Positions 4,773 to 64,000 of a DNA stretch of 64,000 nt are shown piece by piece (the stretch's first letter is position 1; each line of letters opens with the position of its first letter). The notes under the pieces were generated by a model that worked only from the letters and a program-made list of their open reading frames with translations, did not search any database and was not told where the DNA came from. A program made the position numbers and the translations under genes. This stretch comes from Eledone cirrhosa (taxonomy: Eukaryota). Location of the stretch: NCBI GenBank assembly GCA_964016885.1, contig OZ024743.1:237088001-237152000 (forward strand), written 5' to 3'.

Positions 4773-7700
4773 CAGACACCCATAACCATACAACATACCT
4801 AGGTCTATATTAGAGATAACAGACTGTCTTGACCATACAACATTCCTAGGATTATATTACAGACAACAGACGTGACCATACAACATACCTAGGTCTATAT
4901 TAGAGATAACAGACTTGACCATACAACATACCTAGGACTATGTTAGCGACAACAGACACCCTTGACCACACAACATACCTAGGTCTATATTACACACAAC
5001 AGACTTGACCATACAACACACCTAGGATTATATTAGAGACAACAGACATGACCATACAGCATACCTAGGACTGTATTAGAGACAACAGACTTGACGATAC
5101 AACATACCTAGGACTATATTAGAGACAAAAGACTTGACCATACAACATACCTAGGACTGTATTAGAGACAACAGATTTGACCATACAACATACCTAGGAT
5201 TATATTAGAGACAACAGACTTCACCATACGACATACCTAGAACTATATTATAGACAACAGACTTGACCATACAACATACCTAGGACTAAATTACAGACAA
5301 CAGACTGTCTTTACCATAGAACATACATAGGACTATATTACAGACAGCAGAGTTGACCATACAACATACCTAGGACTATATTACAGACAACAGATTTTAC
5401 CATACAACATACCTAGGTCTATATTAAAGACAACAGACTTGACCATACAACATACCTAGGACTATATTACAGACAACAGACTTGACAAAACAACATACCT
5501 AGGACAATATTACAGACAACAGACTTGACCATACAACATACCTAGGACTATATTACAGACAACAGACATGACCATACAACATACCTAGGACTATATTACA
5601 GACAACAGACAGTCTTGACCATACAACATACCTACGTCTATATTACAGACAACAGATTTTACCATACAACATACCTAGGTCTATATTAAAGACAAAAGAC
5701 TTGACCACACACATACCTAGGATTATATTAGAGACAACAGACTTGACCACACAACATACCTAAAACTATTTTACAGACAACAGACTTGACCATACAACAT
5801 ACCTAGGACTATATTACAGACAACAGACTTGACCATACAACATACCTAGGACTATATTGGAGACAACAAACTGTCTTGACCATACAACATACCTAGGACT
5901 ATATTACAGACAACAGATTTGACCACACAACAGACCTAAGATTATATTGGAGACAACAGACTTGACCATACACCATACCTAGGTCTATATTACAGACAAC
6001 AAACTGGACCATACAACATACCTAGGATTATATTATAGACAACAGACTTGACCATACATCATACCTAGGACTATATTACAGACAGCAGACTTGACCATAC
6101 AACATACCTAGGACTATATTAGAGACAACAGACTTGACCATACAACATACCTAGGACTATATTACAGACAGCAGACTTGACCATACAACATACCTAGGAC
6201 TATATTAGAGACAACAGACTTGACCATACAACATTCCTAGGACTATATTACAGACAGCAGACTTGACCATACAACATACCTAGGACTATATTAGAGACAA
6301 CAGACTTGACCATACAACATACCTAGGACTATATTAGAGACAACAGACTTGACCATACAACATACCTAGGACTATATTACAGACAGCAGACTTGACCATA
6401 CAACATACCTAGGTCTATATTACAGACAGCAGAGTTGACCATACAACCATACCTAGGATTATATTAGAGACAACAGACATGACCACACAACATACCTAGG
6501 ACAATATTACAGACAACAGACTTTACCATACAACATACCTAGGACTATATTAGAGATAACAGACTGTCTTGACCATACAACATACCTAGGATTATATTAC
6601 AGACAACAGACGTGACCATCCAACATACCTAGGACTATATTAGAGTCAACAGACACCCTTTGCCATACAACATACCTATGTCTATATTACAGACCACAGA
6701 CTTGACCATACAACATATCTAGGTCTATATTACAGACAACAGACTTGACCATACAATATACCTAGGATTATATTAGAGACAACAGACTTGACCATACAGC
6801 ATACCAAGGACTGAATTAGAGACAACAGACTTGACCATACAACATACCTAGGATTGTATTAGAGACAACAGATTTGACCATACAACATACCTAGGACTAT
6901 ATTAGAGACAACAGGCTTGACCATACAACATACCTAGGTCTATATTAGAGACAACAGACTTGACCATACAACATACCTAGGACTGTATTAGAGACAAAAG
7001 ATTTAACCATACAACATACCTAGGATTATATTAGAGACAACAGACTTGACCATACAACATACCTAGGTCTATATTACAGACAACAGACTGTGTTGACCAT
7101 ACAACATACCTAGGTCTATATTACAGACAACAGACTTGACCATACAACATACCCAGGATTATATTAGAGACAACAAACTTGACCATACAACATACCTAGG
7201 ATTATATTTCAGACAACAGACTTGACCATACAACATACCTAGGACTATATTACAGACAGCAGACTTGAACATACGACATACCTAGGTCTATATTACAGAC
7301 AACAGACTTGACCATACAACATACCTAGGACTATATTAGAGACAACAGACTTGATCACACAACATACCTAGGACTATATTAGAGACAACAGACTTGACCA
7401 TACAACATACCAAGCTCTATATTACAGACAAGAGACTGTCTTGACCATACAACATACCTAGGACTATATTACAGACAACAGACTTGACCATACAACATAC
7501 CTAGTTCTATATTACAGACAAGAGACTGTCTTGACCATACAACATACCTAGGACTATATTACAGACAACAGACGTGACCATACAACCATACCTAGGATTA
7601 TATTAGAGACAACAGACTTGACCACACAACATACCTAGGACTATATTACAGACAACAGACTTGACCATACAACATACCTAGGACTATATTAGAGACAACA

Positions 7701-10700
7701 GACTTGACCACACAACATACCTAGGACTATATTAGAGACAACAGACTTGACCATACAACATACCAAGGTCTATATTACAGACAAGAGACTGTCTTGACCA
7801 TACAACATACCTAGGACTATATTACAGACAACAGACTTGACCATACAACATACCTAGGTCTATATTACAGACAAGAGACTGTCTTGACCATACAACATAC
7901 CTTGGACTATATTACAGACAACAGACGTGACCATACAACCATACCTAGGATTATATTAGAGACAACAGACTTGACCACACAACATACCTAGGACTATATT
8001 ACAGACAACAGACTTGCCCATACAACATACCTAGGTCTATATTACAGACAACAGACTGTCTTGACCGTACAACATACCTAGGACTGTATTGCAGACAACA
8101 GACTTGACCATACAACATACCTAGGTCTATATTACAGACAACAGACTTGACCATACAACATACCTAGGACTATATTAGAGACAACAGACTTGACCACACA
8201 ACATACCTGGGACTATATTAGAGACAACAGACTTGACCATACAACATACCAAGGTCTATATTACAGACAAGAGACTTGACCATACAATATACCTAGGACT
8301 ATATTAGAGACAACAGACTTGACCATACAACATACCTAGGATTATATTACAGACAACAGACTGTCTTGACCATACAGCATACCTAGGACTATATTACAGA
8401 CAACAGCTTGACCATACAACATACCTAGGTCTATATTAGTGACAACAGACTTGACCATACAACATACCTAGGACTATATTACAGACAACAGCTTGACCAT
8501 ACAACATACCTAGGTCTATATGACAGACAACAGACTTGACCATACAGCATACCTAGGTCTATATTAGTGACAACAGACTTGACCATACAACATACCTAGG
8601 ACTATATTACAGACAACAGACTTGACCATACAACATACCTAGGACTATATAACAGACAACAGACTTGACCATACTACATTTCTAGGACTATATTACAGAC
8701 AACAGACCTGACCATACAACATACCTAGGACTATATTACAAACAACAGACTTGACCATACATCATACCAAGGACTATATTACAGACAACAGACTTGACCA
8801 TACAACATACCTAGGACTATATTACAGACAACAGACTTGACCATACATCATACCAAGGACTATATTACCGACAGCAGACTTGACCATACAACATATCTAG
8901 GACTATATTACAGACAACAGACTTGACCATACAACATACCTAGGACTATATTACAGACAACAGACCTGACCATACAACATACCTAGGACTATATTACAGA
9001 CAACAGACTTGACCATACATCATACAAAGGACTATATTACAGACAACAGACTTGACCATACAACATATCTAGGACTATATTACAGACAACAGACTTGACC
9101 ATACAACATACCTAGGACTATATTACAGACAACAGACCTGACCATACAACATACCTAGGACTATATTACAGACAACAGACTTGACCATACATCATACCAA
9201 GGACTATATTACAGACAACAGACCTGACCATACAACATACCTAGGACTATATTACAGACAACAGACTTGACCATACAACATACCTAGGATTATATTACAG
9301 ACAACAGACTTGACCATACATCATACCAAGGACTATATTACAGACAACAGACTTGACAATACAACATATCTAGGACTATATTACAGACAACAGACTTGAA
9401 CATACAACATACCTAGGACTATATTAAAGACAACAGACTTGACCATACAACATATCTAGGACTATATTACAGACAACAGACTTGACCATACAACATATCT
9501 GGGACTATATTAAAGACAACAGACTTTACCATACAACATACCTAGGACTATATTACAGACAACAGACTTGACCATACAACATATCTAGGTCTATATTACA
9601 GACAACAGACTTGACCATACAACATATCTAGGACTATATTAAAGACAACAGACTTGACCATACAACATATTTAGGTCTATATTACAGACAACAGACTTGA
9701 CCATACAACATACCTAGGACTATATTACAGACAACAGACTTGACCATACAACATATCTAGGACTATATTATAGACAACAGACTTGACCATACAACATACC
9801 TAGGACTATATTTCAGACAACAGACTTGACCATACAACATACCTAGGTCTATATTACAGAAAACAGACTTGACCATACACCATACCTAGGTCTATATTAC
9901 AGAAAACAGACTTGACCATACAACATATCTAGGACTATATTACAGACAACAGACTTGACCATACAACATATCTAGGTCTATATCACAGACAACAGACTTG
10001 ACCATACAACATACCTAGGAATATATTTCAGACAACAGACTTGACCATACAACATACCTAGGTCTATATTACAGAAAACAGACTTGACCATACAACATAT
10101 CTAGGACTATATTACAGACAACAGACTTGACCATACAACATATCTAGGTCTATATTACGGACAACACACTTGACCATACAACATACCTAGGACTATATTA
10201 CAGACAACAGACTTGACCATACAACATATCTAGGTCTATATTACAGACAAAAGACTTGACCATACAACATACCAAGGTCTATATTACAGACGACAGACTG
10301 TCTTGACCATACAACATATCTAGGTGTATATTACAGACAACAGACTTGACCATACAACATACCTAGGACTATATTACAGACAACAGACTTGAACACACAA
10401 CATAGCTAGGATTATATTACAGACAACAGACTTGACCATACAACATACCTAGGTCTATATTACAGACAACAGACTTGACCATACAACATATCTATGACTA
10501 TATTACAGACAACAGACTTGCCCATACAACATACCTAGGACTATATTATAGACAACAGACTTGACCATACAACATACCAAGGTCTATATTACAGACAACA
10601 GACTTGACCATACAACATCCCTAGGACTATATTACAGACAACAGACTTGACCATACAACATCCCTAGGACTATATTACAGACAACAGACTGTCTTGACCA

Positions 10701-13700
10701 TACAACATACCTAGGACTATATTACAGACAACAGACTTGAACACACAACATACCTAGGACTATATTAGAGACAACAGACTTGACCATACAACATACCTAG
10801 GTCTATATTACAGAGAACAGACTTGACCATACAACATATCTAGGACTATATTACAGACAACAGACTTGACTATACAACATATCTAGGTCTATATTACAGA
10901 CAACAGAGTTGACCATACAACATACCAAGGTCAATATTACAGACAACAGACTGTCTTGACCATACAACATACCTAGGACTATATTACAGACAACAGAATT
11001 GACCACACAGCATACCTAGGTCTATATTACTGACAACAGACTTGACCATACAAGATACCTAGGATTATATTACAGACAACAGACTGTCTTGACCATACAA
11101 CATACCTAGGACTATATTACAGACAACAGACTTGACCATACAACATACCTAGGTCTATATGACAGACAACAGACTTGACCATACAACATACCTAGGTTTA
11201 TATTAGTGACAACAGACTTGAACACACAACATACCTAGGACTATATTAGAGACAACAGACTTGACCATACAACATACCTAGGTCTATATTACAGAGAACA
11301 GACTTGACCATACAACATATCTAGGACTATATTACAGACAACAGACTTGCCCATACAACGTACCTAGGACTATATTATAGACAACAGACTTGACCATACA
11401 ACATACCTAGGACTATATTATAGACAACAGACTTGACCATAAAACATACCTAGGTCTATATTACAGACAACAGACTTGACCATACAACATCCCTAGGACT
11501 ATATTACAGACAACAGACTTGACCATACAACATACCTAGGACTATATTGCAGACAACAGACTTGACCATACAACATATCTAGGACTATATTACAGACAAC
11601 AGACTTGCCCATACAACGTACCTAGGACTATATTATAGACAACAGACTTGACCATACAACATACCTAGGTCTATATTACAGACAACAGACTTGACCATAC
11701 AACATCCCTAGGACTATATTACAGACAACAGACTTGACCATACAACATACCTAGGACTATATTACAGACAACAGACTTGACCATACAACATACCTAGGAC
11801 TATATTACAGACAACAGACTTGACCATACAACATACCTAGGACTATATTACAGACAACAGACTTGACCATACAACATATCTAGGACTATATTACAAACAG
11901 ACTTGACCATACAACATATCTGGGACTATATTAAAGACAACAGACTTGACCATACAACATACCTAGGACTATATTACAGACAACAGACTTGACCATACAA
12001 CATATCTAGGACTATATTACAAACAGACTTGACCATACAACATATCTGGGACTATATTAAAGACAAAAGACTTGACCATACAACATACCTAGGACTATAT
12101 TACAGACAACAGACTTGACCATACAATATATCTAGGTCTTTATTACAGACAACAGACTTGACCATACAACATATCTAGGTCTATATTACAGACAACAGAC
12201 TTGACCATACAACATACCAAGGATTATATTACAGACAACAGACTTGACCATACAACATATCTAGGACTATATTAAAGACAACAGACTTGACCATACAACA
12301 TATCTAGGTCTATATTACAGACAACAGACTTGACCATACAACATACCTAGGTCTATATTACAGACAACAGATTTGACCATACAACATACCTAGGACTATA
12401 TTACAGACAACAGACTTGACCATACAACATACCTAAGACTATATTACAGACAACAGACTTGACCATACAACATATCTAGGTCTATATTTCAGACAACAAA
12501 CTTAACCATACAACATATCTAGGACTATATTAGAGACAACAGACTTGACCATACAACATACCTAGGTCTATATTACAGACAACAGACTTGACCATACAAC
12601 ATATCTAGGTCTATATTACAGACAACAGACTTGACCATACAACATACCTAGGACTATATTACAGACAACAGACTTGACCATACAGCATATCTAGGTGTAT
12701 ATTACAGACAACAGACTTGACCATACAACATATCTAGGTCTATATTACAGACAACAGACTGTCTTGACCATACAACATACCTAGGTCTATATTACAGACA
12801 ACAGACTGTCTTGACCATACAACATACCTAGGACTATATTACAGACAACAGACTGTCTTGACCATACAACATACCTAGGACTATATTACAGACAACAGAC
12901 TGTCTTGACCATACAACATACCTAGGACTATATTACAGACAACAGACTGTCTTGACCACACAACATACCTAGGACTATATTACAGACAACAGACTTGACC
13001 ATACAACATACCTAGGTCTATATTACAGAAAACAGACTTGACCATACAACATATCTAGGACTATATTACAGACAACAGACTTGACCATACAACATATCTA
13101 GGTCTATATTACAGACTAAAGACTTGACCATACAACATACCTAGGACTATTTTACAGACAACAGACTTGATCATACAACATACCTAGGTCTATATTACAG
13201 ACAACAGACTTGACCATACAACATATCTAGGACTATATTACAGACAACTGACTTGACCACACAACATACCTAGGACTATATTACAGACAACAGACTTGAA
13301 CACACAACATACCTAGTATTATATTACAGACAACAGACTTGACCATACAACATATCTAGGTGTATATTACAGACAACAGACTTGACCATACAACATACCT
13401 AGGACTATATTACAGACAACAGACTTGACCATACAGCATATCTAGGTGTATATTACAGACAACAGACTTGACCATACAACATATCTAGGTCTATATTACA
13501 GATCACTGACTTGACCATACAACATATCTAGTTCTATATTACAGACAACAGACTTGACCATACAACATACCTAGGACTATATTACAGACAACAGACTTGA
13601 CCATACAACATACCTAGGACTATATTTCAGACAACAGACTTGACCATACAACATACCTAGGTCTATATTACTGACAACAGACTTGACCATACAACATATC

Positions 13701-14105
13701 TAGGACTATATTACAGACAACAGACTTTCCCATACAACATATCTAGGACTATATTACAGACAACAGACTTGACCATACAACATACCTAGGACTATATTAT
13801 AGACAACAGACTTGACCATACAACATACCTAGGTGTATATTACAGACAACAGACTTGACCATACAACATCCCTAGGACTATATTACAGACATCAGACTTG
13901 ACCATACAACATACCTAGGACTATATTACAGACAACAGACTGTCTTGACCATACAACATACCTAGGACTATATTACAGACAACAGACTTGAACACACAAC
14001 ATACCTAGGTCTATATTACAGACAACAGATTTGACCATACAACCATACCTAGGTCTATATTACAGACAACAGACTTGACCATACAACCATACCTAGGACT
14101 ATATT
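4773..14105. repeat. 43-bp tandem satellite, ~215 copies
   Basis: Unit CTTGACCATACAACATACCTAGGACTATATTACAGACAACAGA (period 43, e.g. 6091 to 6134). 47-bp variants carry an extra CTGT. No spacers. Confidence 0.98.
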
Positions 14106-14435: not shown

Positions 14436-14505
<70 letters not shown>

Positions 14506-14526
14506 TATATATATACATATATATAT

Positions 14527-14603
<77 letters not shown>

Positions 14604-14611
14604 TAGATATA
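14436..14611. repeat. (TA)n microsatellite (Helitron insertion site)
   Basis: Long TA run directly preceding the Helitron 5' TC. Confidence 0.95.
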
Positions 14612-15858
14612 TCTTATATATAAAGTGAAGATGGGCATTGTTTGGTGTTCCGAACTTGCAAAATTCGGTAAGTTATTGTAATCATATTTCCAAACCTTCC
14701 CATTCACCAGTAACCATGCCAACGAATCTGGTGTCATCTCTCTCTGTATTTAATCACCTCTCTCTCTAACCTAACAGCTTCATTACACGTCGTTATGCCC
14801 ACACGGAAACGTTCAAGACTTACCTCCAAAAAAGGTACAACTACTGCTTTGAGACAACGAATTAGGCGTTCTCAGGTATGAGTTCATTCACAATTGATTA
14901 ATCCTTTATGCAATATTCTCCCTTAATGTTAGCAAGTACTGCGTTTATCCTAACTGTCACCACTTTTAAGTAACTACAACATTCTAATCGTAGTTATATT
15001 AATTTTATTGTCTTACCTTGATTCCCTTTTGTTCATGTTAGACTTTTCTCATTTACTATTGACACTGCCATTGGCTTAGCTAACCAGTAGAACTAATTCA
15101 TTTTCTCTAGGAAACACCTGCTGAGCGCGAATCTCGACTCGCTGATAGACGTCTTTCCCGGCTGGTTGAGTCACCAACATCACGTACGACAAGGCTTGCT
15201 GATGTTCGCCTTCGTCGCCAACAAGCGCTGACGGAGGAATCACCAACATCCCGTCAGACGAGGCTTGAGGCTGTGGCAAAGGGCAATAACCCTAGATACA
15301 ATTTTGATCAACTCCTTTTCACCTATAGCAAATTTACCGGGACAGGTTTTTAGCTACTCAAATCTACTTCAGAGATCACGCATTGATGTAAAAAATCAAT
15401 AAAACTGAAGCGGGGCTCGACTTTGCGCAAAAAAACAAGGCAAAGTTACACATGGGAAAACTTTTTACAGGAACGTCCTATATTCTTGAAAACTGTCACA
15501 AAAGACTCGCCATTATGCCGCGGTTAAGATAAAGGCCCTTTTAATTCTTCTTCTGCACATGTGAGCGCAAAAATTGTAAAAAAAAAAGAACCCTGAAAGT
15601 AATCGACATTTTCACCCTGCTTTAAATTAACTGAACATTCAATATCAAGCGATTTTGACTTCCGTCAGTCGTGCAGAGAACAATTTCAACGATACACCGT
15701 GTAACTACAATTAATAAATTACACACCTGTGTCTACTAACCTATTTTTTTTCATTGAAGTTCGAAGTTTTGAACCTGTGATGCGCGGGAAGTAACTTTCA
15801 CACATTCTAACAGACCAAAGGTCGACTTACACCCGGGCAACGCCGGGTACTTCTGCTA

Positions 15859-15859
<1 letters not shown>
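14612..15859 (+). mobile_element. Non-autonomous Helitron, copy 1 (internally deleted derivative)
   Basis: A|TCTTATATATAAAG 5' end, subterminal hairpin ACCCGG-GCAACG-CCGGGT (15831-15848) and CTAG|T 3' end, inserted between A and T with no TSD. Both termini are shared with copy 2. Confidence 0.92.
14795..15353 (+). CDS. Spliced 107-aa ORF with STPR-like repeats (Helitron Rep/Hel N-terminus remnant); exons 14795-14875 and 15111-15353
   Basis: ATG...CAG|GTATGA intron 14876-15110 with branch-like ACTAAT and ttttctctAG, phase 0. Joined protein: MPTRKRSRLTSKKGTTTALRQRIRRSQ/ETPAERESRLADRRLSRLVESPTSRTTRLADVRLRRQQALTEESPTSRQTRLEAVAKGNNPRYNFDQLLFTYSKFTGTGF*. Three E(T/S)PxxRxxRL motifs spaced 19 and 23 aa. 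Confidence 0.7.

Positions 15860-15903
<44 letters not shown>
15860..15903. repeat. (TA)n spacer between the two Helitrons
   Basis: Perfect TA run from CTAG|T to A|TC. Confidence 0.95.
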
Positions 15904-15906
<3 letters not shown>

Positions 15907-17114
15907 TATATATAAAGTGAAGATGGGCATTGTTTGGTGTTCCCAACTTGCATGCTACACCGTTCATCCAATTTTCATGAAACCTCACACATATATAAAA
16001 CTCAACGCGTAGAGTGGAATAGGCTACTTGAACATTTCGAAAAATCGATAATCGGGACCACAGAAGCCAAAAATCGATATTTTCAAAAATCGATGAAACT
16101 CGACGCAAGTGTGTATTTTGATTCGGGGATAAACGTGCGCTACATTAAATTTTCGAAAAATCGATAATTGGATCACCAGAGGCGAAAATCGATATTTACG
16201 AAATTTGTCCGATTCCAATGAAATTTGCCGTAGGTATGTATTTTGATGCGGGGATTAACGTGGGATACTTGAAATTGTAAAAAGAAAATCGATAATCGGA
16301 CCCCCAGAGGCAAAAATCCGGCAACCGAAAAACGCCATTCTTCTTGCTTACATTTGTCGCGACTCCCGCCATGCAAAAAATGTTCAATCTATCAGGATTA
16401 TCTAATTAACGCTCACCATATTCAGCAAACCTTTTATGCCGATTCTTCCATTTCTTATATAAGGACTATCAACACTATACCGCCGCGCATCATCCTGTAT
16501 TGCACCCAGTCTTCTCAAACGATCATCGAGCCTCCATGCGCTCCCTTCATTCCCGTGGTCCCACTGCCGTAGCATAATGAGGCATCCGTCAAAATCTGCC
16601 CTCTCCCATCCCTGCACGCCGTCGACCTACTGCATCGTTGTGCATCACCATGCGCATCTCTGCATTGTCAGCTGCAATTCATTCCCCGGCCCTTTCCATT
16701 GCCTGCCCTCCGTGGTCCCTAAGGACTGCCACGGCTCAACATGCCGAATCCCTGCCACCGTCCACCCCTGCCCATTTCCATTGCCTACACTCCGGGAGAG
16801 CTCAAGACTTCCAGGCCTGACCAAGCCGCATCCCTGCCACCGTCAACCCCTGCCCTCTCCCTTTCCTGCACGCCGTCATCCCACTGCATCGTCATGCCTC
16901 ACCATGCCGCATTACTGCCCTGTCGGTCACCATCTGAACCTACAATTGATCCATTATTTATGCTCAATTACACACCTGCGTATACTAACCTATGTTTTTT
17001 TTCCTGAGGTTCGAAGGTTTTTGCACCTGTGATGCGCGGAAAGTAACTTTCAAACATTTTAACAACAGACCAAAGGTCGACTTACACCCGGGCAACGCCG
17101 GGTACTTCTGCTAG
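15904..17114 (+). mobile_element. Non-autonomous Helitron, copy 2 (different internal sequence)
   Basis: Same 5' end TCTTATATATAAAGTGAAGATGGGCATTGTTTGGTGTTCC, same hairpin and ...GGTACTTCTGCTAG|T end. About 145 bp of 3' homology with copy 1. Internal degenerate repeats (aaatcgataat at 16042, 16158, 16286). Confidence 0.92.
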
Positions 17115-54138: not shown

Positions 54139-57100
54139 GTGACACTGGTGGTCTAGTGTAGGAGAGGGTGGTGGGTGACACTGTTGGTCTAGTGTAGGAG
54201 AGGGTGGTGGGTGACACTGTTGGTTTAGTGTAGGAGAGGGTGGTGGATGACACTGTTGGTTTAGTGTAGGAGAGGGTGGTGGGTGACACTGGTGGTCTAG
54301 TGTAGGAGAGGGTGGTGGGTGACACTGTTGGTCTAGTGTAGGAGAGGGTGGTGGATGACACTGTTGGTTTAGTGTAGGAGAGGGTGGTGGGTGACACTGT
54401 TGGTCTAGTGTAGGAGAGGGTGGTGGATGACACTGTTGGTTTAGTGTAGGAGAGGGTGGTGGGTGACACTGTTGGTCTAGTTTAGGAGAGGGTGGTGGGT
54501 GACACTGTTGGTTTAGTGTAGGAGAGGGTGGTGGGTGACACTGTTGGTCTAGTGTAGGAGAGGGTGGTGGGTGACACTGTTGGTCTAGTGTAGGAGAGGG
54601 TGGTGGGTGACACTGTTGGTCTAGTGTAGGAGAGGGTGGTGGGTGACACTGTTGGTTTAGTGTAGGAGAGGGTGGTGGGTGACACTGTTGGTCTAGTTTA
54701 GGAGAGGGTGGTGGGTGACACTGTTGGTCTAGTGTAGGAGAGGGTGGTGGGTGACACTGTTGCTCTAGTGTAGGAGATGGTGGTGGGTGACACTGTTGGC
54801 TTAGTGTAGGAGAGGGTGGTGAGTGACACTGTTGGTCTAGTGTAGGAGATGGTGGTGGGTGACACTGTTGGCTTAGTGTAGGAGAGGGTGGTGGGTGACA
54901 CTGTTGGTCTAGTGTAGGAGATGGTGGTGGGTGACACTGTTGGCTTAGTGTAGGAGAGGGTGGTGGGTGACACTGTTGGTCTAGTGTAGGAAAGGGTGGT
55001 GGGTGACACTGTTGGTTTAGTGTAGGAGAGGGTGGTGGATGACACTGTTGGTTTAGTGTAGGAGAGGGTGGTGGGTGACACTGTTGGTTTAGTGTAGGTG
55101 AGGGTGGTGGGTGACACTGTTGGTTTAGTGTAGGAGAGGGTGGTGGGTGACACTGTTGGTCTAGTGTAGGAGAGGGTGGTGAGTGACACTGTTGGTCTTG
55201 TGTAGGAGAGGGCGGTGGGTGACACTGTTGGTCTAGTGAAGGAGAGGCTGGTGGGTGACACTGTTGGTCTAGTGAAGGAGAGGGTGGTGGGTGACACTGT
55301 TGGTCTAGTGTAGGAGAGGGTGGTGAGTGACACTGTTGGTCTTGTGTAGGAGAGGGCGGTGGGTGACACTGTTGGTCTAGTGTAGGAGAGGGTGGTGGGT
55401 GACACTGTTGGTTTAGTGTAGGAGAGGGTGGTGGGTGACACTGTTGGTCTAGTGTAGGAGATGGTGGTGGGTGACACTGTTGGCTTAGTGTAGGAGAGGG
55501 TGGTGGGTGACACTGTTGGTCTAGTGTAGGAAAGGGTGGTGGGTGACACTGTTGGTTTAGTGTAGGAGAGGGCGGTGGGTGACACTCTTGGTTTAGTGTA
55601 GGAGAGGGTGGTGGATGACACTGTTGGTTTAGTGTAGGAGAAGGTGGTGGGTGACACTGTTGGTCTAGTGTAGGAGAGGGTGGTGAGTGACACTGTTGGT
55701 CTTGTGTAGGAGAGGGCGGTGGGTGACACTGTTGGTCTAGTGAAGGAGAGGCTGGTGGGTGACACTGTTGGTCTAGTGAAGGAGAGGGTGGTGGGTGACA
55801 CTGTTGGTCTAGTGTAGGAGAGGGTGGTGGATGACACTGTTGGTTTAGTGTAGGAGAGGGTGGTGGGTGACACTGTTGGTCTAGTGTAGGAGAGGGTGGT
55901 GGGTGACACTGTTGGTCTAGTGTAGGAGAGGGTGGTGGGTGACACTGTTGGTGTAGTGTAGGAGAGGGTGGTGGATGACACTGTTGGTTTAGTGTAGGAG
56001 AGGGTGGTGGGTGACACTGTTGGTCTAGTGTAGGAGAGGGTGGTGGGTGACACTGTTGGTCTAGTGTAGGAGAGGGTGGTGGGTGACACTGTTGGGTAGT
56101 GTAGGAGAGGGTGGTGGATGACACTGTTGGTCTAGTGTAGGAGAGGGCGGTGAGTGACACTGTTGGTCTAGTGTAGGAGAGGGTGGTGGGTGACACTGTT
56201 GGTTTAGTGTAGGAGAGGGTGGTGGGTGACACTGTTGGTCTAGTGTAGGAGAGGGTGGTGGGTGACACTGTTGGTCTAGTGTAGGAGAGGGTGGTGGGTG
56301 ACACTGTTGGTTTAGTGTAGGAGAGGGTGGTGGATGACACTGTTGGTTTAGTGTAGGAGAGGGTGGTGGGTGACACTGTTGGTCTAGTGTAGGAGAGGGC
56401 GGTGGGTGACACTGTTGGTCTAGTGTAGGAGAGGGTGGTGGATGACACTGTTGGTTTAGTGTAGGAGAGGGTGGTGGGTGACACTGTTGGTCTAGTGAAG
56501 GAGAGGGCGGTGGGTGACACTGTTGGTCTAGTGTAAGAGAGGGTGGTGGGTGACACTGTTGGTCTAGTGTAGAAGAGGGTGGTGGGTGACACTGTTGGTC
56601 TAGTGTAGGAGAGGGTGGTGGATGACACTGTTGGTTTAGTGTAGGAGAGGGTGGTGGGTGACACTGTTGGTCTAGTGTAGGAGAGGGTGGTGGATGACAC
56701 TGTTGGTTTAGTGTAGGAGAGGGTGGTGGATGACACTGTTGGTTTAGTGTAGGAGAGGGTGGTGGGTGACACTGTTGGTCTAGTGTAGGAGAGGGCGGTG
56801 GGTGACACTGTTGGTCTAGTGTAGGAGAGGGTGGTGGGTGACACTGTTGGTCTAGTGTAGGAGAGGGTGGTGGGTGACACTGTTGGTCTAGTGTAGGAGA
56901 GGGTGGTGGGTGACACTGTTGGTCTAGTGTAGGAGAGGGTGGTGGGTGACACTGTTGGTCTAGTGTAGGAGAGGGTGGTGGATGACACTGTTGGTTTAGT
57001 GTAGGAGAGGGTGGTGGGGTGACACTGTTGGTCTAGTGTAGGAGAGGGTGGTGGGTGACACTGTTGGTCTAGTATAGGAGAGGGTGGTGGGTGGCACTGT

Positions 57101-60100
57101 TGGTCTAGTGTAGGAGAGGGTGGTGGGTGGCACTGTTGGTCTAGTGTAGGAGAGGGTGGTGGGTGACACTGTTGGTCTAGTGTAGGAGAGGGTGGTGGGT
57201 GACACTGTTGGTCTAGTGTAGGAGAGGGTGGTGGGTGACACTGTTGGTCTAGTGTAGGAGAGGGTGGTGGGTGACACTGTTGGTCTAGTGTAGGAGAGGG
57301 TGGTGGGTGACACTGTTGGTCTAGTGTAGGAGAGGGTGGTGGGTGACACTGTTGGTCTAGTGTAGGAGAGGGTGGTGGGTGACACTGTTGGTCTAGTGTA
57401 GGAGATGGTGGTGGGTGACACTGTTGGTCTAGTGTAGGAGAGGGTGGTGGGTGACACTGTTGGTCTGGTGTAGGAGAGGGTGGTGGGTGACACTGTTGGT
57501 CTAGTGTAGGAGATGGTGGTGGGTGACACTGTTGGTCTAGTGTAGGAGAGGGTGGTGGGTGACACTGTTGGTCTAGTGTAGGAGAGGGTGGTGGGTGACA
57601 CTGTTGGTCTAGTGTAAGAGAGGGTGGTGGGTGACACTGTTGGTATAGTGTAGGTGAGGGTGGTGGGTGACACTGTTGGTCTAGTGTAGGAGAGGGTGGT
57701 GGGTGACACTGTTGGTCTAGTGTAGGAGAGGGTGGTGGGTGACACTGTTGGTCTAGTGTAGGAGAGGGTTGTGGGTGACACTGTTGGTCTAGTGTAAGAG
57801 AGGGTGGTGGGTGACACTGTTGGTCTAGTGTAGGAGAGGGTGGTGGGTGACACTGTTGGTCTAGTGTAGGAGAGGGTGGTGGGTGACACTGTTGGTCTAG
57901 TGTAGGAGAGGGTTGTGGGTGACACTGTTGGTCTAGTGTAGGAGAGGGTTGTGGGTGACACTGTTGGTCTAGTGTAGGAGATGGTGGTGGGTGACACTGT
58001 TGGTCTAGTGTAGGAGAGGGTGGTGGGTGACACTGTTGGTCTAGTGTAGGAGAGGGTGGTGGGTGACACTGTTGGTCTAGTGTAAGAGAGGGTGGTGGGT
58101 GACACTGTTGGTCTAGTGTAGGTGAGGGTGGTGGGTGACACTGTTGGTCTAGTGTAAGAGAGGGCGGTGGGTGACACTGTTGGTCTAGTGTAGGAGAGGG
58201 TGGTGGGTGACACTGTTGGTCTAGTGTAGGAGAGGGTGGTGGGTGACACTGTTGGTCTAGTGTAGAAGAGGGCGGTGGGTGACACTGTTGGTCTAGTGTA
58301 AGAGAGGGCGGTGGGTGACACTGTTGGTCTAGTGTAGGAGAGGGTGGTGGGTGACACTGTTGGTCTAGTGTAGGAGAGGGTGGTGGGTGACACTGTTGGT
58401 CTAGTGTAGGAGAGGGTGGTGGGTGACACTGTTGGTGTAGTGTAGGAGAGGGTGGTGGGTGACACTGTTGGTCTACTGTAGGAGAGGGTGGTGGGTGACA
58501 CTGTTGTTCTAGTGTAAGAGAGGGCGGTGGGTGACACTGTTGGTCTAGTGTATGAGAGGGTGATGGGTGACACTGTTGGTCTAGTGTAGGAGAGGGCGGT
58601 GGGTGACACTGTTGGTCTAGTGTAAGAGAGGGCGGTGGGTGACACTGTTGGTCTAGTGTAGGAGAGGGTGGTGGGTGACACTGTTGGTCTAGTGTAGGAG
58701 AGGGTGGTGGGTGACACTGTTGGTCTAGTGTAGGAGAGGGTGGTGGGTGACACTGTTGGTCTAGTGTAAGAGAGGGCGGTGGGTAACACTGTTGGTCTAG
58801 TGTAGGAGAGGGCGGTGGGTGACACTGTTGGTCTAGTGTAGGAGAGGGTGGTGGGTGACACTGTTGGTCTAGTGTAGGAGATGGCGGTGGGTGACACTGT
58901 TGGTCTAGTGTAGGAGAGGGTGGTGGGTGACACTGTTGGTCTAGTGTAGGAGAGGGTTGTGGGTGACACTGTTGGTCTAGTGTAGGAGATGGTGGTGGGT
59001 GACACTGTTGGTCTAGTGTAGGAGAGGGTGGTGGGTGACACTGTTGGTTTAGTGTAGGAAAGGGTGGCGGGTGACACTGTTGGTCTAGTGTAGGAGAGGG
59101 CGGTGGGTGACACTGTTGGTCTAGTGTAGGAGAGGGCGGTGGGTGACACTGTTGGTCTAGTGTAGGAGAGGGCGGTGGGTGACACTGTTGGTCTAGTGTA
59201 GGAGAGGGTGGTGGATGACACTGTTGGTTTAGTGTAGGAGAGGGTGGTGGGTGACACTGTTGGTCTAGTGTAGGAGAGGGTGGTGGATGACACTGTTGGT
59301 TTAGTGTAGGAGAGGGTGGTGGATGACACTGTTGGTTTAGTGTAGGAGAGGGTGGTGGGTGACACTGTTGGTCTAGTGTAGGAGAGGGCGGTGGGTGACA
59401 CTGTTGGTCTAGTGTAGGAGAGGGTGGTGGGTGACACTGTTGGTCTAGTGTAGGAGAGGGTGGTGGGTGACACTGTTGGTCTAGTGTAGGAGAGGGTGGT
59501 GGGTGACACTGTTGGTCTAGTGTAGGAGAGGGTGGTGGGTGACACTGTTGGTCTAGTGTAGGAGAGGGTGGTGGATGACACTGTTGGTTTAGTGTAGGAG
59601 AGGGTGGTGGGTGACACTGTTGGTCTAGTGTAGGAGAGGGTGGTGGGTGACACTGTTGGTCTAGTATAGGAGAGGGTGGTGGGTGGCACTGTTGGTCTAG
59701 TGTAGGAGAGGGTGGTGGGTGGCACTGTTGGTCTAGTGTAGGAGAGGGTGGTGGGTGACACTGTTGGTCTAGTGTAGGAGAGGGTGGTGGGTGACACTGT
59801 TGGTCTAGTGTAGGAGAGGGTGGTGGGTGACACTGTTGGTCTAGTGTAGGAGAGGGTGGTGGGTGACACTGTTGGTCTAGTGTAGGAGAGGGTGGTGGGT
59901 GACACTGTTGGTCTAGTGTAGGAGAGGGTGGTGGGTGACACTGTTGGTCTAGTGTAGGAGAGGGTGGTGGGTGACACTGTTGGTCTAGTGTAGGAGAGGG
60001 CGGTGGGTGACACTGTTGGTCTAGTGTAGGAGAGGGTGGTGGGTGACACTGTTGGTCTAGTGTAGGAGAGGGTGGTGGGTGACACTGTTGGTCTAGTGTA

Positions 60101-63100
60101 GGAGAGGGTGGTGGGTGACACTGTTGGTCTAGTGTAGGAGAGGGTTGTGGGTGACACTGTTGGTCTAGTGTAGGAGATGGTGGTGGGTGACACTGTTGGT
60201 CTAGTGTAGGAGAGGGTGGTGGGTGACACTGTTGGTCTAGTGTAGGAGAGGGTGGTGGGTGACACTGTTGGTCTAGTGTAGGAGATGGTGGTGGGTGACA
60301 CTGTTGGTCTAGTGTAGGAGAGGGTGGTGGGTGACACTGTTGGTCTAGTGTAGGAGAGGGTGGTGGGTGACACTGTTGGTCTAGTGTAGGAGAGGGTGGT
60401 GGGTGACACTGTTGGTCTAGTGTAGGAGATGGTGGTGGGTGACACTGTTGGTCTAGTGTAGGAGAGGGTGGTGGGTGACACTGTTGGTCTAGTGTAGGAG
60501 AGGGTGGTGGGTGACACTGTTGGTCTAGTGTAAGAGAGGGTGGTGGGTGACACTGTTGGTCTAGTGTAGGTGAGGGTGGTGGGTGACACTGTTGGTCTAG
60601 TGTAGGAGAGGGTGGTGGGTGACACTGTTGGTCTAGTGTAGGAGAGGGTGGTGGGTGACACTGTTGGTCTAGTGTAGGAGAGGGTTGTGGGTGACACTGT
60701 TGGTCTAGTGTAGGAGAGGGTGGTGGGTGACACTGTTGGTCTAGTGTAGGAGAGGGTGGTGGGTGACACTGTTGGTCTAGTGTAAGAGAGGGTGGTGGGT
60801 GACACTGTTGGTCTAGTGTAGGTGAGGGTGGTGGGTGACACTGTTGGTCTAGTGTAAGAGAGGGCGGTGGGTGACACTGTTGGTCTAGTGTAGGAGAGGG
60901 TGGTGGGTGACACTGTTGGTCTAGTGTAGGAGAGGGTGGTGGGTGACACTGTTGGTCTAGTGTAGAAGAGGGCGGTGGGTGACACTGTTGGTCTAGTGTA
61001 AGAGAGGGCGGTGGGTGACACTGTTGGTCTAGTGTAGGAGAGGGTGGTGGGTGACACTGTTGGTCTAGTGTAGGAGAGGGTGGTGGGTGACACTGTTGGT
61101 CTAGTGTAGGAGAGGGTGGTGGGTGACACTGTTGGTGTAGTGTAGGAGAGGGTGGTGGGTGACACTGTTGGTCTACTGTAGGAGAGGGTGGTGGGTGACA
61201 CTGTTGTTCTAGTGTAAGAGAGGGCGGTGGGTGACACTGTTGGTCTAGTGTATGAGAGGGTGATGGGTGACACTGTTGGTCTAGTGTAGGAGAGGGCGGT
61301 GGGTGACACTGTTGGTCTAGTGTAAGAGAGGGCGGTGGGTGACACTGTTGGTCTAGTGTAGGAGAGGGTGGTGGGTGACACTGTTGGTCTAGTGTAGGAG
61401 AGGGTGGTGGGTGACACTGTTGGTCTAGTGTAGGAGAGGGTGGTGGGTGACACTGTTGGTCTAGTGTAAGAGAGGGCGGTGGGTAACACTGTTGGTCTAG
61501 TGTAGGAGAGGGCGGTGGGTGACACTGTTGGTCTAGTGTAGGAGAGGGTGGTGGGTGACACTGTTGGTCTAGTGTAGGAGATGGCGGTGGGTGACACTGT
61601 TGGTCTAGTGTAAGAGAGGGCGGTGGGTGACACTGTTGGTCTAGTGTAGGAGAGGGTGGTGGGTGACACTGTTGGTCTAGTGTAGGAGAGAGTGGTGGGT
61701 GACACTGTTGGTCTAGTGTAGGAGAGGGCGGTGGGTGACACTGTTGGTCTAGTGTAGGAGAGGGCGGTGGGTGACACTGTTGGTCTAGTGTAGGAGAGGG
61801 TGGTGGGTGACACTGTTGGTCTAGTGTAGGAGAGGGTGGTGGGTCACACTGTTGGTCTAGTGTAGGAGAGGGTGGTGGGTGACACTGTTGGTCTAGTGTA
61901 GGAGAGGGTGGTGGGTGACACTGTTGGTCTAGTGTAGGAGAGGGTGGTGGGTGACACTGTTGGTCTAGTGTAGGAGAGGGTTGTGGGTGACACTGTTGGT
62001 CTAGTGTAGGAGATGGTGGTGGGTGACACTGTTGGTCTAGTGTAGGAGAGGGTGGTGGGTGACACTGTTGGTTTAGTGTAGGAAAGGGTGGCGGGTGACA
62101 CTGTTGGTCTAGTGTAGGAGAGGGCGGTGGGTGACACTGTTGGTCTAGTGTAGGAGAGGGCGGTGGGTGACACTGTTGGTCTAGTGTAGGTGAGGGTGGT
62201 GGGTGACACTGTTGGTCTAGTGTAAGAGAGGGCGGTGGGTGACACTGTTGGTCTAGTGTAGGAGAGGGTGGTGGGTGACACTGTTGGTCTAGTGTAGGAG
62301 AGGGTGGTGGGTGACACTGTTGGTCTAGTGTAGAAGAGGGCGGTGGGTGACACTGTTGGTCTAGTGTAAGAGAGGGCGGTGGGTGACACTGTTGGTCTAG
62401 TGTAGGAGAGGGTGGTGGGTGACACTGTTGGTCTAGTGTAGGAGAGGGTGGTGGGTGACACTGTTGGTCTAGTGTAGGAGAGGGTGGTGGGTGACACTGT
62501 TGGTGTAGTGTAGGAGAGGGTGGTGGGTGACACTGTTGGTCTACTGTAGGAGAGGGTGGTGGGTGACACTGTTGTTCTAGTGTAAGAGAGGGCGGTGGGT
62601 GACACTGTTGGTCTAGTGTATGAGAGGGTGGTGGGTGACACTGTTGGTCTAGTGTAGGAGAGGGCGGTGGGTGACACTGTTGGTCTAGTGTAAGAGAGGG
62701 CGGTGGGTGACACTGTTGGTCTAGTGTAGGAGAGGGTGGTGGGTGACACTGTTGGTCTAGTGTAGGAGAGGGTGGTGGGTGACACTGTTGGTCTAGTGTA
62801 GGAGAGGGTGGTGGGTGACACTGTTGGTCTAGTGTAAGAGAGGGCGGTGGGTAACACTGTTGGTCTAGTGTAGGAGAGGGCGGTGGGTGACACTGTTGGT
62901 CTAGTGTAGGAGAGGGTGGTGGGTGACACTGTTGGTCTAGTGTAGGAGAGGGCGGTGGGTGACACTGTTGGTCTAGTGTAAGAGAGGGCGGTGGGTGACA
63001 CTGTTGGTCTAGTGTAGGAGAGGGTGGTGGGTGACACTGTTGGTCTAGTGTAGGAGAGAGTGGTGGGTGACACAGTTGGTCTAGTGTAGGAGAGGGCGGT

Positions 63101-64000
63101 GGGTGACACTGTTGGTCTAGTGTAGGAGAGGGCGGTGGGTGACACTGTTGGTCTAGTGTAGGAGAGGGTGGTGGGTGACACTGTTGGTCTAGTGTAGGAG
63201 AGGGTGGTGGGTGACACTGTTGGTCTAGTGTAGGAGAGGGTTGTGGGTGACACTGTTGGTCTAGTGTAGGAGATGGTGGTGGGTGACACTGTTGGTCTAG
63301 TGTAGGTGAGGGTGGTGGGTGACACTGTTGGTCTAGTGTAAGAGAGGGCGGTGGGTGACACTGTTGGTCTAGTGTAGGAGAGGGTGGTGGGTGACACTGT
63401 TGGTCTAGTGTAGGAGAGGGTGGTGGGTGACACTGTTGGTCTAGTGTAGAAGAGGGTGGTGGGTGACACTGTTGGTCTAGTGTAAGAGAGGGCGGTGGGT
63501 GACACTGTTGGTCTAGTGTAGGAGAGGGTGGTGGGTGACACTGTTGGTCTAGTGTAGGAGAGGGTGGTGGGTGACACTGTTGGTTTAGTGTAGGAGAGGG
63601 TGGTGGGTGACACTGTTGGTCTAGTGTAGGAGAGGGTGGTGGGTGACACTGTTGGCTTAGTGTAGGAGAGGGTGGTGGGTGACACTGTTGGTCTAGTGTA
63701 GGAGAGGTTGGTGGGTGACACTGTTGGTTTAGTGTAGGAGAGGGTGGTGGATGACACTGTTGGTTTAGTGTAGGAGAGGGTGGTGGGTGACACTGTTGGT
63801 CTAGTGTAGGAGAGGGCGGTGGGTGACACTGTTGGTCTAGTGTAGGAGAGGGTGGTGGATGACACTGTTGGTTTAGTGTAGGAGAGGGTGGTGGGTGACA
63901 CTGTTGGTCTAGTGAAGGAGAGGGCGGTGGGTGACACTGTTGGTCTAGTGTAAGAGAGGGTGGTGGGTGACACTGTTGGTCTAGTGTAGGAGAGGGTGGT
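54139..64000. repeat. G-rich 36-bp satellite, ~274 copies, runs off window end
   Basis: Unit GTGACACTGTTGGTCTAGTGTAGGAGAGGGTGGTGG. Highly homogeneous, with single-base indels near 56095 and 57018. Confidence 0.98.

What the first reader, a model, noticed from the sequence alone, without database searches (positions are those of the whole stretch)
14612..15859. 1.25-kb Helitron retaining an intact spliced STPR-repeat mini-gene
Seen: canonical Helitron ends enclose an ORF split by a phase-0 GT-AG intron (14876-15110). It gives 107 aa with no stops or frameshifts: a basic NLS-like leader (RKRSR, RQRIRRSQ) and three E(T/S)PxxRxxRL motifs, the last two 23 aa apart. A possible 5'-UTR intron (GTAAGT at 14668, ctaacAG ending 14777) precedes the ATG. 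Known: STPR is a 23-residue-repeat DNA-binding domain (silkworm FMBP-1) that binds AT-rich DNA, and similar repeats occur at the N-terminus of animal Helitron Rep/Hel proteins. Inference: this is a deletion derivative that lost HUH-Rep and PIF1 helicase but could still express a small DNA-binding protein, e.g. a repressor analogous to the P-element KP protein or a factor binding (TA)n sites. The ORF track misses it because it is spliced.
Basis: partly seen in the sequence, partly recalled or inferred. Interest (0 to 1): 0.75.

Follow-up and report, generated by a model that had tools for sequence, protein, structure and literature searches.

The report
Helitron remnant keeping transposase's first exons
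This is a one-off, twice-shortened copy of an abundant rolling-circle transposon; its apparent mini-gene is the cut-off front of the transposase gene joined to non-coding DNA, and because sister copies decay like unselected DNA it is likely a passenger, not a working regulator.

Summary
The sequence is as described: Helitron ends, a GT-AG intron and a 107-codon spliced frame. It is not an intact STPR gene. An 8.2-kb parent Helitron in the same genome carries the same exon, intron and repeats in frame with Rep, followed by PIF1. One internal deletion made a 2.5-kb family (194 exact-junction copies). That cut falls ten residues into repeat 3, leaving one full 23-aa repeat. The last 28 codons come from non-coding DNA 1.4 kb past the helicase stop. 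In 100 position-ordered copies the frame evolves neutrally: dN/dS 1.13 (0.85-1.50), 16 stops against 15.4 expected, 36 of 97 broken. The window's 1.25-kb form occurs once: a sibling family's 5' end is joined to the body, and the family's upstream TATA region is gone. No RNA run was available. A KP-like repressor from other copies is not excluded (37 of 67 keep TATA, splice sites, frame and AATAAA). The scan reported this kind of element before in other genomes. Ordinary: a new member of a known kind.

The parts
14436..14611 (.). (TA)n array, left flank and insertion site
   Evidence: array 14436-14622, which includes the TA-rich start of the element
14612..14660 (+). 5' terminus (TC...) of the sibling B-family type, not of the 2.5-kb family; joined at 14660 to the body of the 2.5-kb family, replacing about 1.29 kb
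   Evidence: 48 of 49 nt identical to neighbour B against about 91% to its own family; 26 of 27 loci with this exact 28-mer continue into a B-type body; the junction 21-mer occurs once in the genome
14617..14625 (+). TATA-like word within the 5' terminus (TATAAAG at 14619, 49 nt before the UTR donor); function untested
14668..14777 (+). Predicted 5'-UTR intron, inherited from the parent
   Evidence: sequence; same region in parent copies; donor kept in nearly all family copies; splicing inferred
14795..14875 (+). Exon 1 = first 27 codons of the parent RepHel, a basic NLS-like leader
   Evidence: intronless relatives start MP..[KR]..R and reach the first E(T/S) after 24-25 aa
14876..15110 (+). 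Phase-0 GT-AG intron of the parent transposase gene
   Evidence: present in the parent; in-frame stops make splicing necessary for the parent frame; no transcript seen
15111..15267 (+). Exon 2, parent-derived part: STPR-like repeat 1 (19 aa, 15111-15167), repeat 2 (23 aa, 15168-15236) and the first 10 aa of repeat 3 (15237-15266); deletion junction with a 3-nt microhomology at 15265-15267
15268..15353 (+). Fortuitous 28-codon tail and stop, from the parent's non-coding 3' region about 1.4 kb after the helicase stop
   Evidence: in 4 of 4 parent copies this frame has a stop 2 codons before the junction
15398..15403 (+). AATAAA, possible polyadenylation signal; untested
15831..15859 (+). 3' terminus: 6-bp stem-loop (15831-15848) and CTAG
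   Evidence: CTAG at 59 of 66 resolved family ends
15860..15903 (.). (TA)n spacer between the two elements
15904..17114 (+). Neighbour B: a complete non-autonomous sibling Helitron with related ends and no STPR exon

Best explanation
This is a non-autonomous canonical Helitron (HLE1) copy whose spliced frame is the first 79 codons of the parent Rep/helicase gene joined by a deletion to non-coding DNA, likely carried as a passenger and decaying neutrally. Step 1 (shown): an 8.2-kb autonomous-type element encodes leader, intron, four STPR-like repeats, a Cys-rich motif and Rep in one frame, followed by PIF1. Step 2 (shown): one internal deletion of about 5.65 kb at a 3-nt microhomology gave a 2.5-kb element. 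Step 3 (inferred from HLE1 biology): transposase supplied in trans amplified it recently to at least 194 copies about 1% from their majority sequence, mostly into (TA)n. Step 4 (shown as structure, mechanism inferred): at this locus a B-family 5' end became joined to the last 1.2 kb of one copy, probably by a deletion across a tandem B + 2.5-kb pair. The product has both ends but was found only once. The frame is open because the copy is young, not because it is selected.
For: Parent: 4 of 20 fetched loci (of 37 pattern matches) match the 2.5-kb element over bases 1-1926 and again 1924-2518, up to about 5.7 kb apart. Its exon-2 frame carries Helitron_like_N at E 1.8e-58, and PIF1 follows at 4.2e-57. 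The tail frame is closed in 4 of 4 parent copies. Neutrality in 100 of the 194 junction copies, taken in genome order: 217 non-synonymous, 66 synonymous and 16 nonsense changes against 245.3, 83.2 and 15.4 expected from the element's own non-coding spectrum, omega 1.13 (0.85-1.50); exon 1 plus the STPR part alone gives 1.13 (0.81-1.61); 61 of 97 covered copies are intact. In the first 70, 40 of 67 were intact against 61-62% expected (P 0.7-0.9). The window copy is 1.09% from the majority and the family median is 1.07%. A second, older derivative family keeps the same exons and has only 3 of 16 frames open to the family stop. The window form is unique.
Against: Frameshifts in exon 1 plus the STPR part were fewer than expected in the first 70 copies (5 against 12.4, one-sided P 0.015). 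This did not replicate in the next 30 (4 against 5.0). Pooled it is 9 against 17.7 (P 0.018), or against 14.3 (P 0.097) with introns as the control, and the exon is GC-richer than the control (52% against 36%). 37 of 67 copies keep TATAAAG, all splice sites, the frame and AATAAA, so expression is structurally possible. The window copy has a TATAAAG in its own 5' terminus at a plausible distance, so loss of the upstream region does not prove silence. Neutral decay of most copies cannot exclude a few selected or expressed ones. The sample needed an exact 22-nt junction match and so favours younger copies.
Confidence: 0.86

Rival explanations
1. KP-like repressor at family level: the 2.5-kb copies transcribe the cassette from the parent promoter, and the leader-plus-repeat fragment competes with full transposase for the AT-rich ends. 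No copy-level selection is needed, because the fragment acts in trans from many loci.
For: 37 of 67 copies keep a complete-looking cassette with the stop in the last exon. P-element repressors need interrupted translation plus the DNA-binding domain (PMC12393704, passages). The Helraiser N-terminal 489 aa are needed for ssDNA binding (PMC4778049, passages). BmSTPR binds (atat)n and (tata)n at 97-340 nM (PMC4856987, Table 1), and the 5' terminus is TA-rich. Weak frameshift deficit.
Against: Only one complete repeat is left, whereas the BmSTPR structures and binding data use three or four. The Cys-rich motif is deleted. Omega is 1.13 and nonsense changes occur at the neutral rate. The older family, which keeps more repeats and the Cys motif, is mostly broken (3 of 16 open).
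Confidence: 0.08
2. This particular copy is a host-used mini-gene, driven by the TATA word in its swapped 5' end and the adjoining (TA)n array.
For: Open frame, intact splice sites, TATAAAG 49 nt before the UTR donor, no upstream ATG after splicing, AATAAA after the stop.
Against: Divergence is the family median. Of its five changes from the family majority inside the coding exons, two adjacent ones lie in exon 1, one in exon 2 and two in the tail, with no deficit against the rest of the element (13 changes in 1198 nt). It lies between a 9.3-kb and a 33-kb satellite array. No protein of 44-140 aa scored E <= 0.001 among 17 candidates.
Confidence: 0.02
3. The 1.25-kb form is an assembly join and not a real allele; the real object is an ordinary 2.5-kb copy next to B elements.
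For: The junction is unique and lies in a satellite- and microsatellite-rich region.
Against: The join is clean, with one shared base and no N. Other family copies show comparable private internal deletions (L138, L154), and tandem end-to-start arrays exist (L008, L010, L216).
Confidence: 0.04

Closest known systems
Non-autonomous HLE1 (canonical Helitron) deletion derivatives, e.g. HelibatN1-N3 with Helibat1/Helraiser (PMC4778049, passages; PMC11417382, passages and section 22)
   Same: 5'-TC, 3' hairpin 11 nt before CTAG, A|T site, no RepHel core, ends shared with an autonomous partner, high copy number.
   Different: It keeps its own transposase leader, intron and 2.5 repeats rather than a captured host promoter; this copy has a swapped 5' end.
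STPR-bearing HLE1 RepHel proteins (HELIANO, PMC11417382 section 22; P0004 annotated in Centruroides vittatus, P0002 in Aedes albopictus)
   Same: Basic MP..KR leader of 24-27 aa, then 23-aa E(T/S)xxxRxxRL repeats, a Cys-rich motif and Rep.
   Different: The parent here has an intron just before repeat 1. HELIANO counts STPRs among domains in separate ORFs, but here and in P0002/P0004 they share the Rep frame.
STPR domain of Bombyx FMBP-1 (PDB 5d23; PMC4856987, parts 1-3 of 5)
   Same: 23-residue period; Glu1, Arg6, Arg9 and Leu10 are kept in all three motif heads. Sole PDB hit for exon 2 (E 0.75); best hit at E 6e-4 for an eight-repeat sister.
   Different: One full repeat instead of four; Met13, Ser14, Tyr16, Ala17 and Arg20 are not kept in it; below the Pfam cut-off.
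P-element KP repressor (as described in PMC12393704, passages; the primary papers were seen only as reference lines)
   Same: Internally deleted, abundant element whose remaining frame is the transposase's N-terminal part with a short foreign tail (the KP tail is recalled, from no call).
   Different: KP keeps its whole DNA-binding domain and has shown repressor activity; here the repeat array is cut, and neither expression nor repression is shown.

Membership tests
Non-autonomous HLE1 Helitron | 5'-TC and 3'-CTRR with a subterminal hairpin | tested here: met
   CTAG at 59 of 66 resolved ends of 70 examined
Non-autonomous HLE1 Helitron | Insertion between A and T without target duplication | tested here: inconclusive
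   A|T at this locus; T follows 64 of 66 resolved 3' ends. No empty site was examined, and a short duplication cannot be seen inside (TA)n.
Non-autonomous HLE1 Helitron | Autonomous RepHel partner with the same ends | tested here: met
   L108 417-8590 and L126 423-8236 share both ends and carry Helitron_like_N and PIF1 frames; all four parent copies read are broken into several frames
Non-autonomous HLE1 Helitron | Dispersed multiple copies with sharp ends | tested here: met
   194 exact-junction copies of the 2.5-kb family; the window's own 1.25-kb form occurs once
STPR domain (PF21107) | Pfam gathering score of 27 bits | tested here: not met
   exon 2: 16 bits, E 0.017; parent frame 19.4 bits; eight-repeat sisters 60.4 and 36.5 bits
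STPR domain (PF21107) | Three to four tandem complete 23-aa repeats | tested here: not met
   19 aa + 23 aa + 10 aa
STPR domain (PF21107) | Conserved DNA-contact residues (R6, R9, L10, M13, S14, Y16, A17, R20, L21) | tested here: inconclusive
   R6, R9, L10 and L21 are kept in the full repeat; positions 13, 14, 16, 17 and 20 differ
STPR domain (PF21107) | Binds AT-rich DNA in the major groove | not testable with these tools
   needs a binding assay
KP-type truncated-transposase repressor | Transposase translation interrupted | tested here: met
KP-type truncated-transposase repressor | DNA-binding domain retained whole | tested here: not met
   2.5 of 4 repeats kept and the Cys-rich motif lost
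KP-type truncated-transposase repressor | Expressed, and represses transposition | not testable with these tools
   no RNA run was offered
Host-domesticated transposon gene | Purifying selection on the frame | tested here: not met
   omega 1.13 (0.85-1.50), 16 stops against 15.4 expected; family level only, orthologous copies in other individuals not tested

The most novel reading that the evidence does not exclude
The 2.5-kb family, with about half its copies keeping promoter, both introns, frame and poly(A) signal, mass-produces a leader-plus-STPR fragment. The fragment occupies the TA-rich Helitron 5' ends and (TA)n target arrays and damps transposition: a KP-type self-repressor for a rolling-circle transposon. 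It would also imply that the STPR repeats of RepHel are what steer these elements into (TA)n microsatellites.
Probability: 0.08. Interest if true: 0.65.

Novelty: new member of a known kind. Interest (0 to 1): 0.17.

Why it matters
As it stands it is a clean worked example, not a discovery: parent, dated deletion family, exact junction and a powered neutrality test show how a spliced 'mini-gene' can be a by-product of keeping a Helitron's 5' end. It warns against annotating such frames as genes. If the novel reading held, it would give Helitrons a truncated-transposase repressor and a testable role for the STPR repeats in end recognition and (TA)n targeting. Paper searches listed no paper on either point by title or abstract start; the library lacks most subscription journals.

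Tried and rejected
RNA evidence: no RNA holder listed. The four listed runs (kind not on record, one study) were laid twice. They cover introns and exons alike and show no joint at either intron, and no listed contig bridged the window's private junction (61 records not shown). Neither blank counts for or against. The loose ends at 15265 first suggested that the 3' part came from an unrelated repeat; one search showed it is the parent's own 3' region. I first read the window copy as a plain deletion of a 2.5-kb copy; two searches showed its 5' end is of the B type. The frameshift deficit failed to replicate. A test of STPR against (TA)n targeting, using Helitron families without repeats, was inconclusive: in 20 long-frame Rep loci, ends flanked by (TA)n were seen in families with clear repeats and in the most divergent family, which itself has 23-residue-like repeats, so there was no repeat-free control. 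Region-level figures for the older family were dropped because my classifier mixed parent copies in; only the 16-locus frame count is used. The first flank count resolved 49 of 70 ends and was redone (66 of 70). No similarity between exon 1 and exon 2. No short protein relative (0 of 17 candidates). Internalin hits are chance matches of leucine periodicity. No look-alike by sequence among earlier findings. HELIANO Supplementary Table S11, which may list the species with STPR-bearing HLE1, was not read.

Full report
Observation. Every coordinate in the finding holds: TC at 14612, CTAG at 15856-15859, a stem-loop at 15831-15848, (TA)n on both sides, a GT-AG intron at 14876-15110 in phase 0, and a spliced frame of 107 codons. 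Exon 2 matches Pfam STPRs weakly (16 bits, cut-off 27), and its only PDB hit is FMBP-1 at E 0.75. A second element with related ends and a different middle, here called B, follows at 15904-17114.

Family. The element had 932 DNA and 799 protein candidates in the 3.0-Gb genome (candidates, not copy numbers). The 29 other top copies fetched align only from base 49. In 25 of them a 5' end was found about 1.3 kb further upstream, giving about 2.5 kb. That extra stretch ends in a TATAAAG 70 nt before the UTR donor. An exact 22-mer across the internal junction has 194 matches. The window's own junction has one. Its first 49 nt are 48/49 identical to B and about 91% to its own family, and 26 of 27 loci with that exact terminus continue into a B-type body. 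The window copy is therefore a chimera: B-type start, family body. Base 41 resembles a minority variant of the 2.5-kb family, so the switch point inside the shared terminus is not resolved. The mechanism, a deletion across a tandem pair, is inferred from tandem arrays seen elsewhere.

Parent. A pattern asking for a different base after repeat 3 gave 37 matches; I fetched 20. Four are parent-type and match the 2.5-kb element over bases 1-1926 and again 1924-2518; the fullest spans 8.17 kb. Their exon 2 continues through a fourth repeat and a Cys-rich motif into Helitron_like_N (E 1.8e-58), and PIF1 follows (E 4.2e-57). All four are broken into several frames. The deletion joins at a 3-nt microhomology. 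The right side lies about 1.4 kb after the helicase stop, and in all four parents the tail's frame is closed two codons before the junction. The last 28 codons are thus accidental. The other 16 loci form an older derivative family of about 2.9 kb that keeps the same exons with more repeats and the Cys motif; 3 of 16 are open to the family stop.

Is the intron real? No transcript was seen. Indirect support is good. The parent's exon-2 frame begins right at the acceptor and needs exon 1 for an ATG. Intronless Helitron families in the same genome, and annotated RepHel proteins of a mosquito and a scorpion, start with MP and a basic patch and reach the first repeat after 24-25 residues, against 27 here after splicing. 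So the intron most likely belongs to the parent transposase gene and was inherited.

Selection. I took the first 100 of the 194 junction matches in genome order, mapped them to their majority sequence, and derived expected changes from the element's own non-coding DNA, with CpG handled apart. The 22-nt pattern, sites next to indels and variants shared by many copies were left out. Result: 217 non-synonymous, 66 synonymous and 16 nonsense changes against 245.3, 83.2 and 15.4 expected; omega 1.13 (0.85-1.50). 61 of 97 covered copies are intact; the 36 broken ones show 20 frameshifts, 10 stops, 4 splice-site and 2 start-codon losses. In the first 70 the intact share, 40 of 67, matched the neutral 61-62%. 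The window copy sits at the median divergence (1.09% against 1.07%), so an open frame is the expected state. Against neutrality: a frameshift deficit in exon 1 plus the repeats in the first 70 (5 against 12.4). It did not replicate in the next 30 (4 against 5.0); pooled P is 0.018, or 0.097 with introns as the control, and GC content confounds it.

The protein. BmSTPR wraps DNA with three or four 23-residue helices, each covering 4 bp, and prefers AT-rich units including (atat)n and (tata)n (PMC4856987, parts 1-3 of 5 read). The fragment has repeats of 19, 23 and 10 residues. Its one full repeat keeps E1, R6, R9, L10 and L21 but not positions 13, 14, 16, 17 and 20. It descends from an STPR-like array but fails the domain's membership tests.

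What remains open. 37 of 67 family copies keep TATAAAG, four splice sites, the frame and AATAAA. P-element repressors are defined by interrupted translation plus a kept DNA-binding domain (PMC12393704, passages), and the Helraiser N-terminus is needed for ssDNA binding (PMC4778049, passages). A trans-acting fragment need not show copy-level selection, so the repressor reading stays at about 8%. The window copy has lost the upstream region but has a TATAAAG in its own terminus, so it is not provably silent. The family is strongly tied to (TA)n: 51 of 66 resolved 3' ends (70 examined) are followed at once by four TA units, against 3% and 15% of AT sites in two backgrounds. Whether STPR repeats cause this could not be tested, for lack of a repeat-free family and of empty sites.

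Prior knowledge. HELIANO lists STPRs as a domain stably carried almost only by HLE1 (PMC11417382, passages and section 22 read; supplement not read). Searches were seen as listings; PMC4821344 was seen as a listing only. None listed a Helitron KP-like repressor. Earlier notes of this scan describe STPR-retaining mini-Helitrons in at least three other genomes with the same passenger reading. I read them after forming my view (stated) and did not test them.

Verdict. New member of a known kind; interest 0.17.

Noticed in passing
window 15904-17114: Neighbour B is a complete non-autonomous sibling Helitron with internal ~116-bp and ~81-bp repeats. Loci with its exact 5' terminus (27) vary in length and interior, and several carry the parent's 3' region from the same point as the 2.5-kb family.
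   Followed up: partly
L110-L119, L121-L125, L127 (e.g. L113:1893-2864): An older ~2.9-kb derivative family keeps exon 1, the intron, a variable number of 69-bp repeats (up to eight) and the Cys-rich motif; the frame ends inside the 3' terminus. It is a better repressor candidate by anatomy, but only 3 of 16 copies are open.
   Followed up: partly
family 3' ends, L128-L198: 51 of 66 resolved ends are followed at once by (TA)4, far above background; the other Helitron families sampled here also end in (TA)n. STPR-guided targeting is an untested idea.
   Followed up: partly
L226 (G000:C2:315523800-315533700): A different Helitron family with one 1718-codon open frame that holds about a dozen near-identical STPR repeats fused to Rep. 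This shows STPRs in the RepHel frame itself, unlike the HELIANO wording.
   Followed up: partly
L088 (G000:C8:40278164-40278385), L089, L096, L107: The best STPR profile hits in the genome (up to 63 bits) have frames unlike the Helitron families and no family hairpin nearby; possibly host or domesticated STPR genes.
   Followed up: no
table (e.g. L101, G000:C4:215784432): Many STPR hits have open frames of about 260 codons; those read belong to an intronless Helitron family and stop just after the Cys-rich motif. Possibly another derivative family, or a shared stop.
   Followed up: no
G000:C20:3.5-5.2 Mb, C27:13.0-15.5 Mb, C19:35-40 Mb, C16:0.5-0.8 Mb (L043-L057): Near-identical Rep-domain hits recur about every 100-170 kb on C20 and C27, suggesting a Helitron inside a very large tandem or segmental repeat unit.
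   Followed up: no
window 4785-14105, 20727-53993, 54139-64000: Three long satellite arrays (43-bp x 215, 22-bp x 1450, 36-bp x 274) with strong strand skew make up most of the window.
   Followed up: no
L006, element positions ~1060-1240: The family's presumed promoter region holds two similar AAGGCTCACC...TATAA modules about 150 nt apart; both are absent from the window copy.
   Followed up: no
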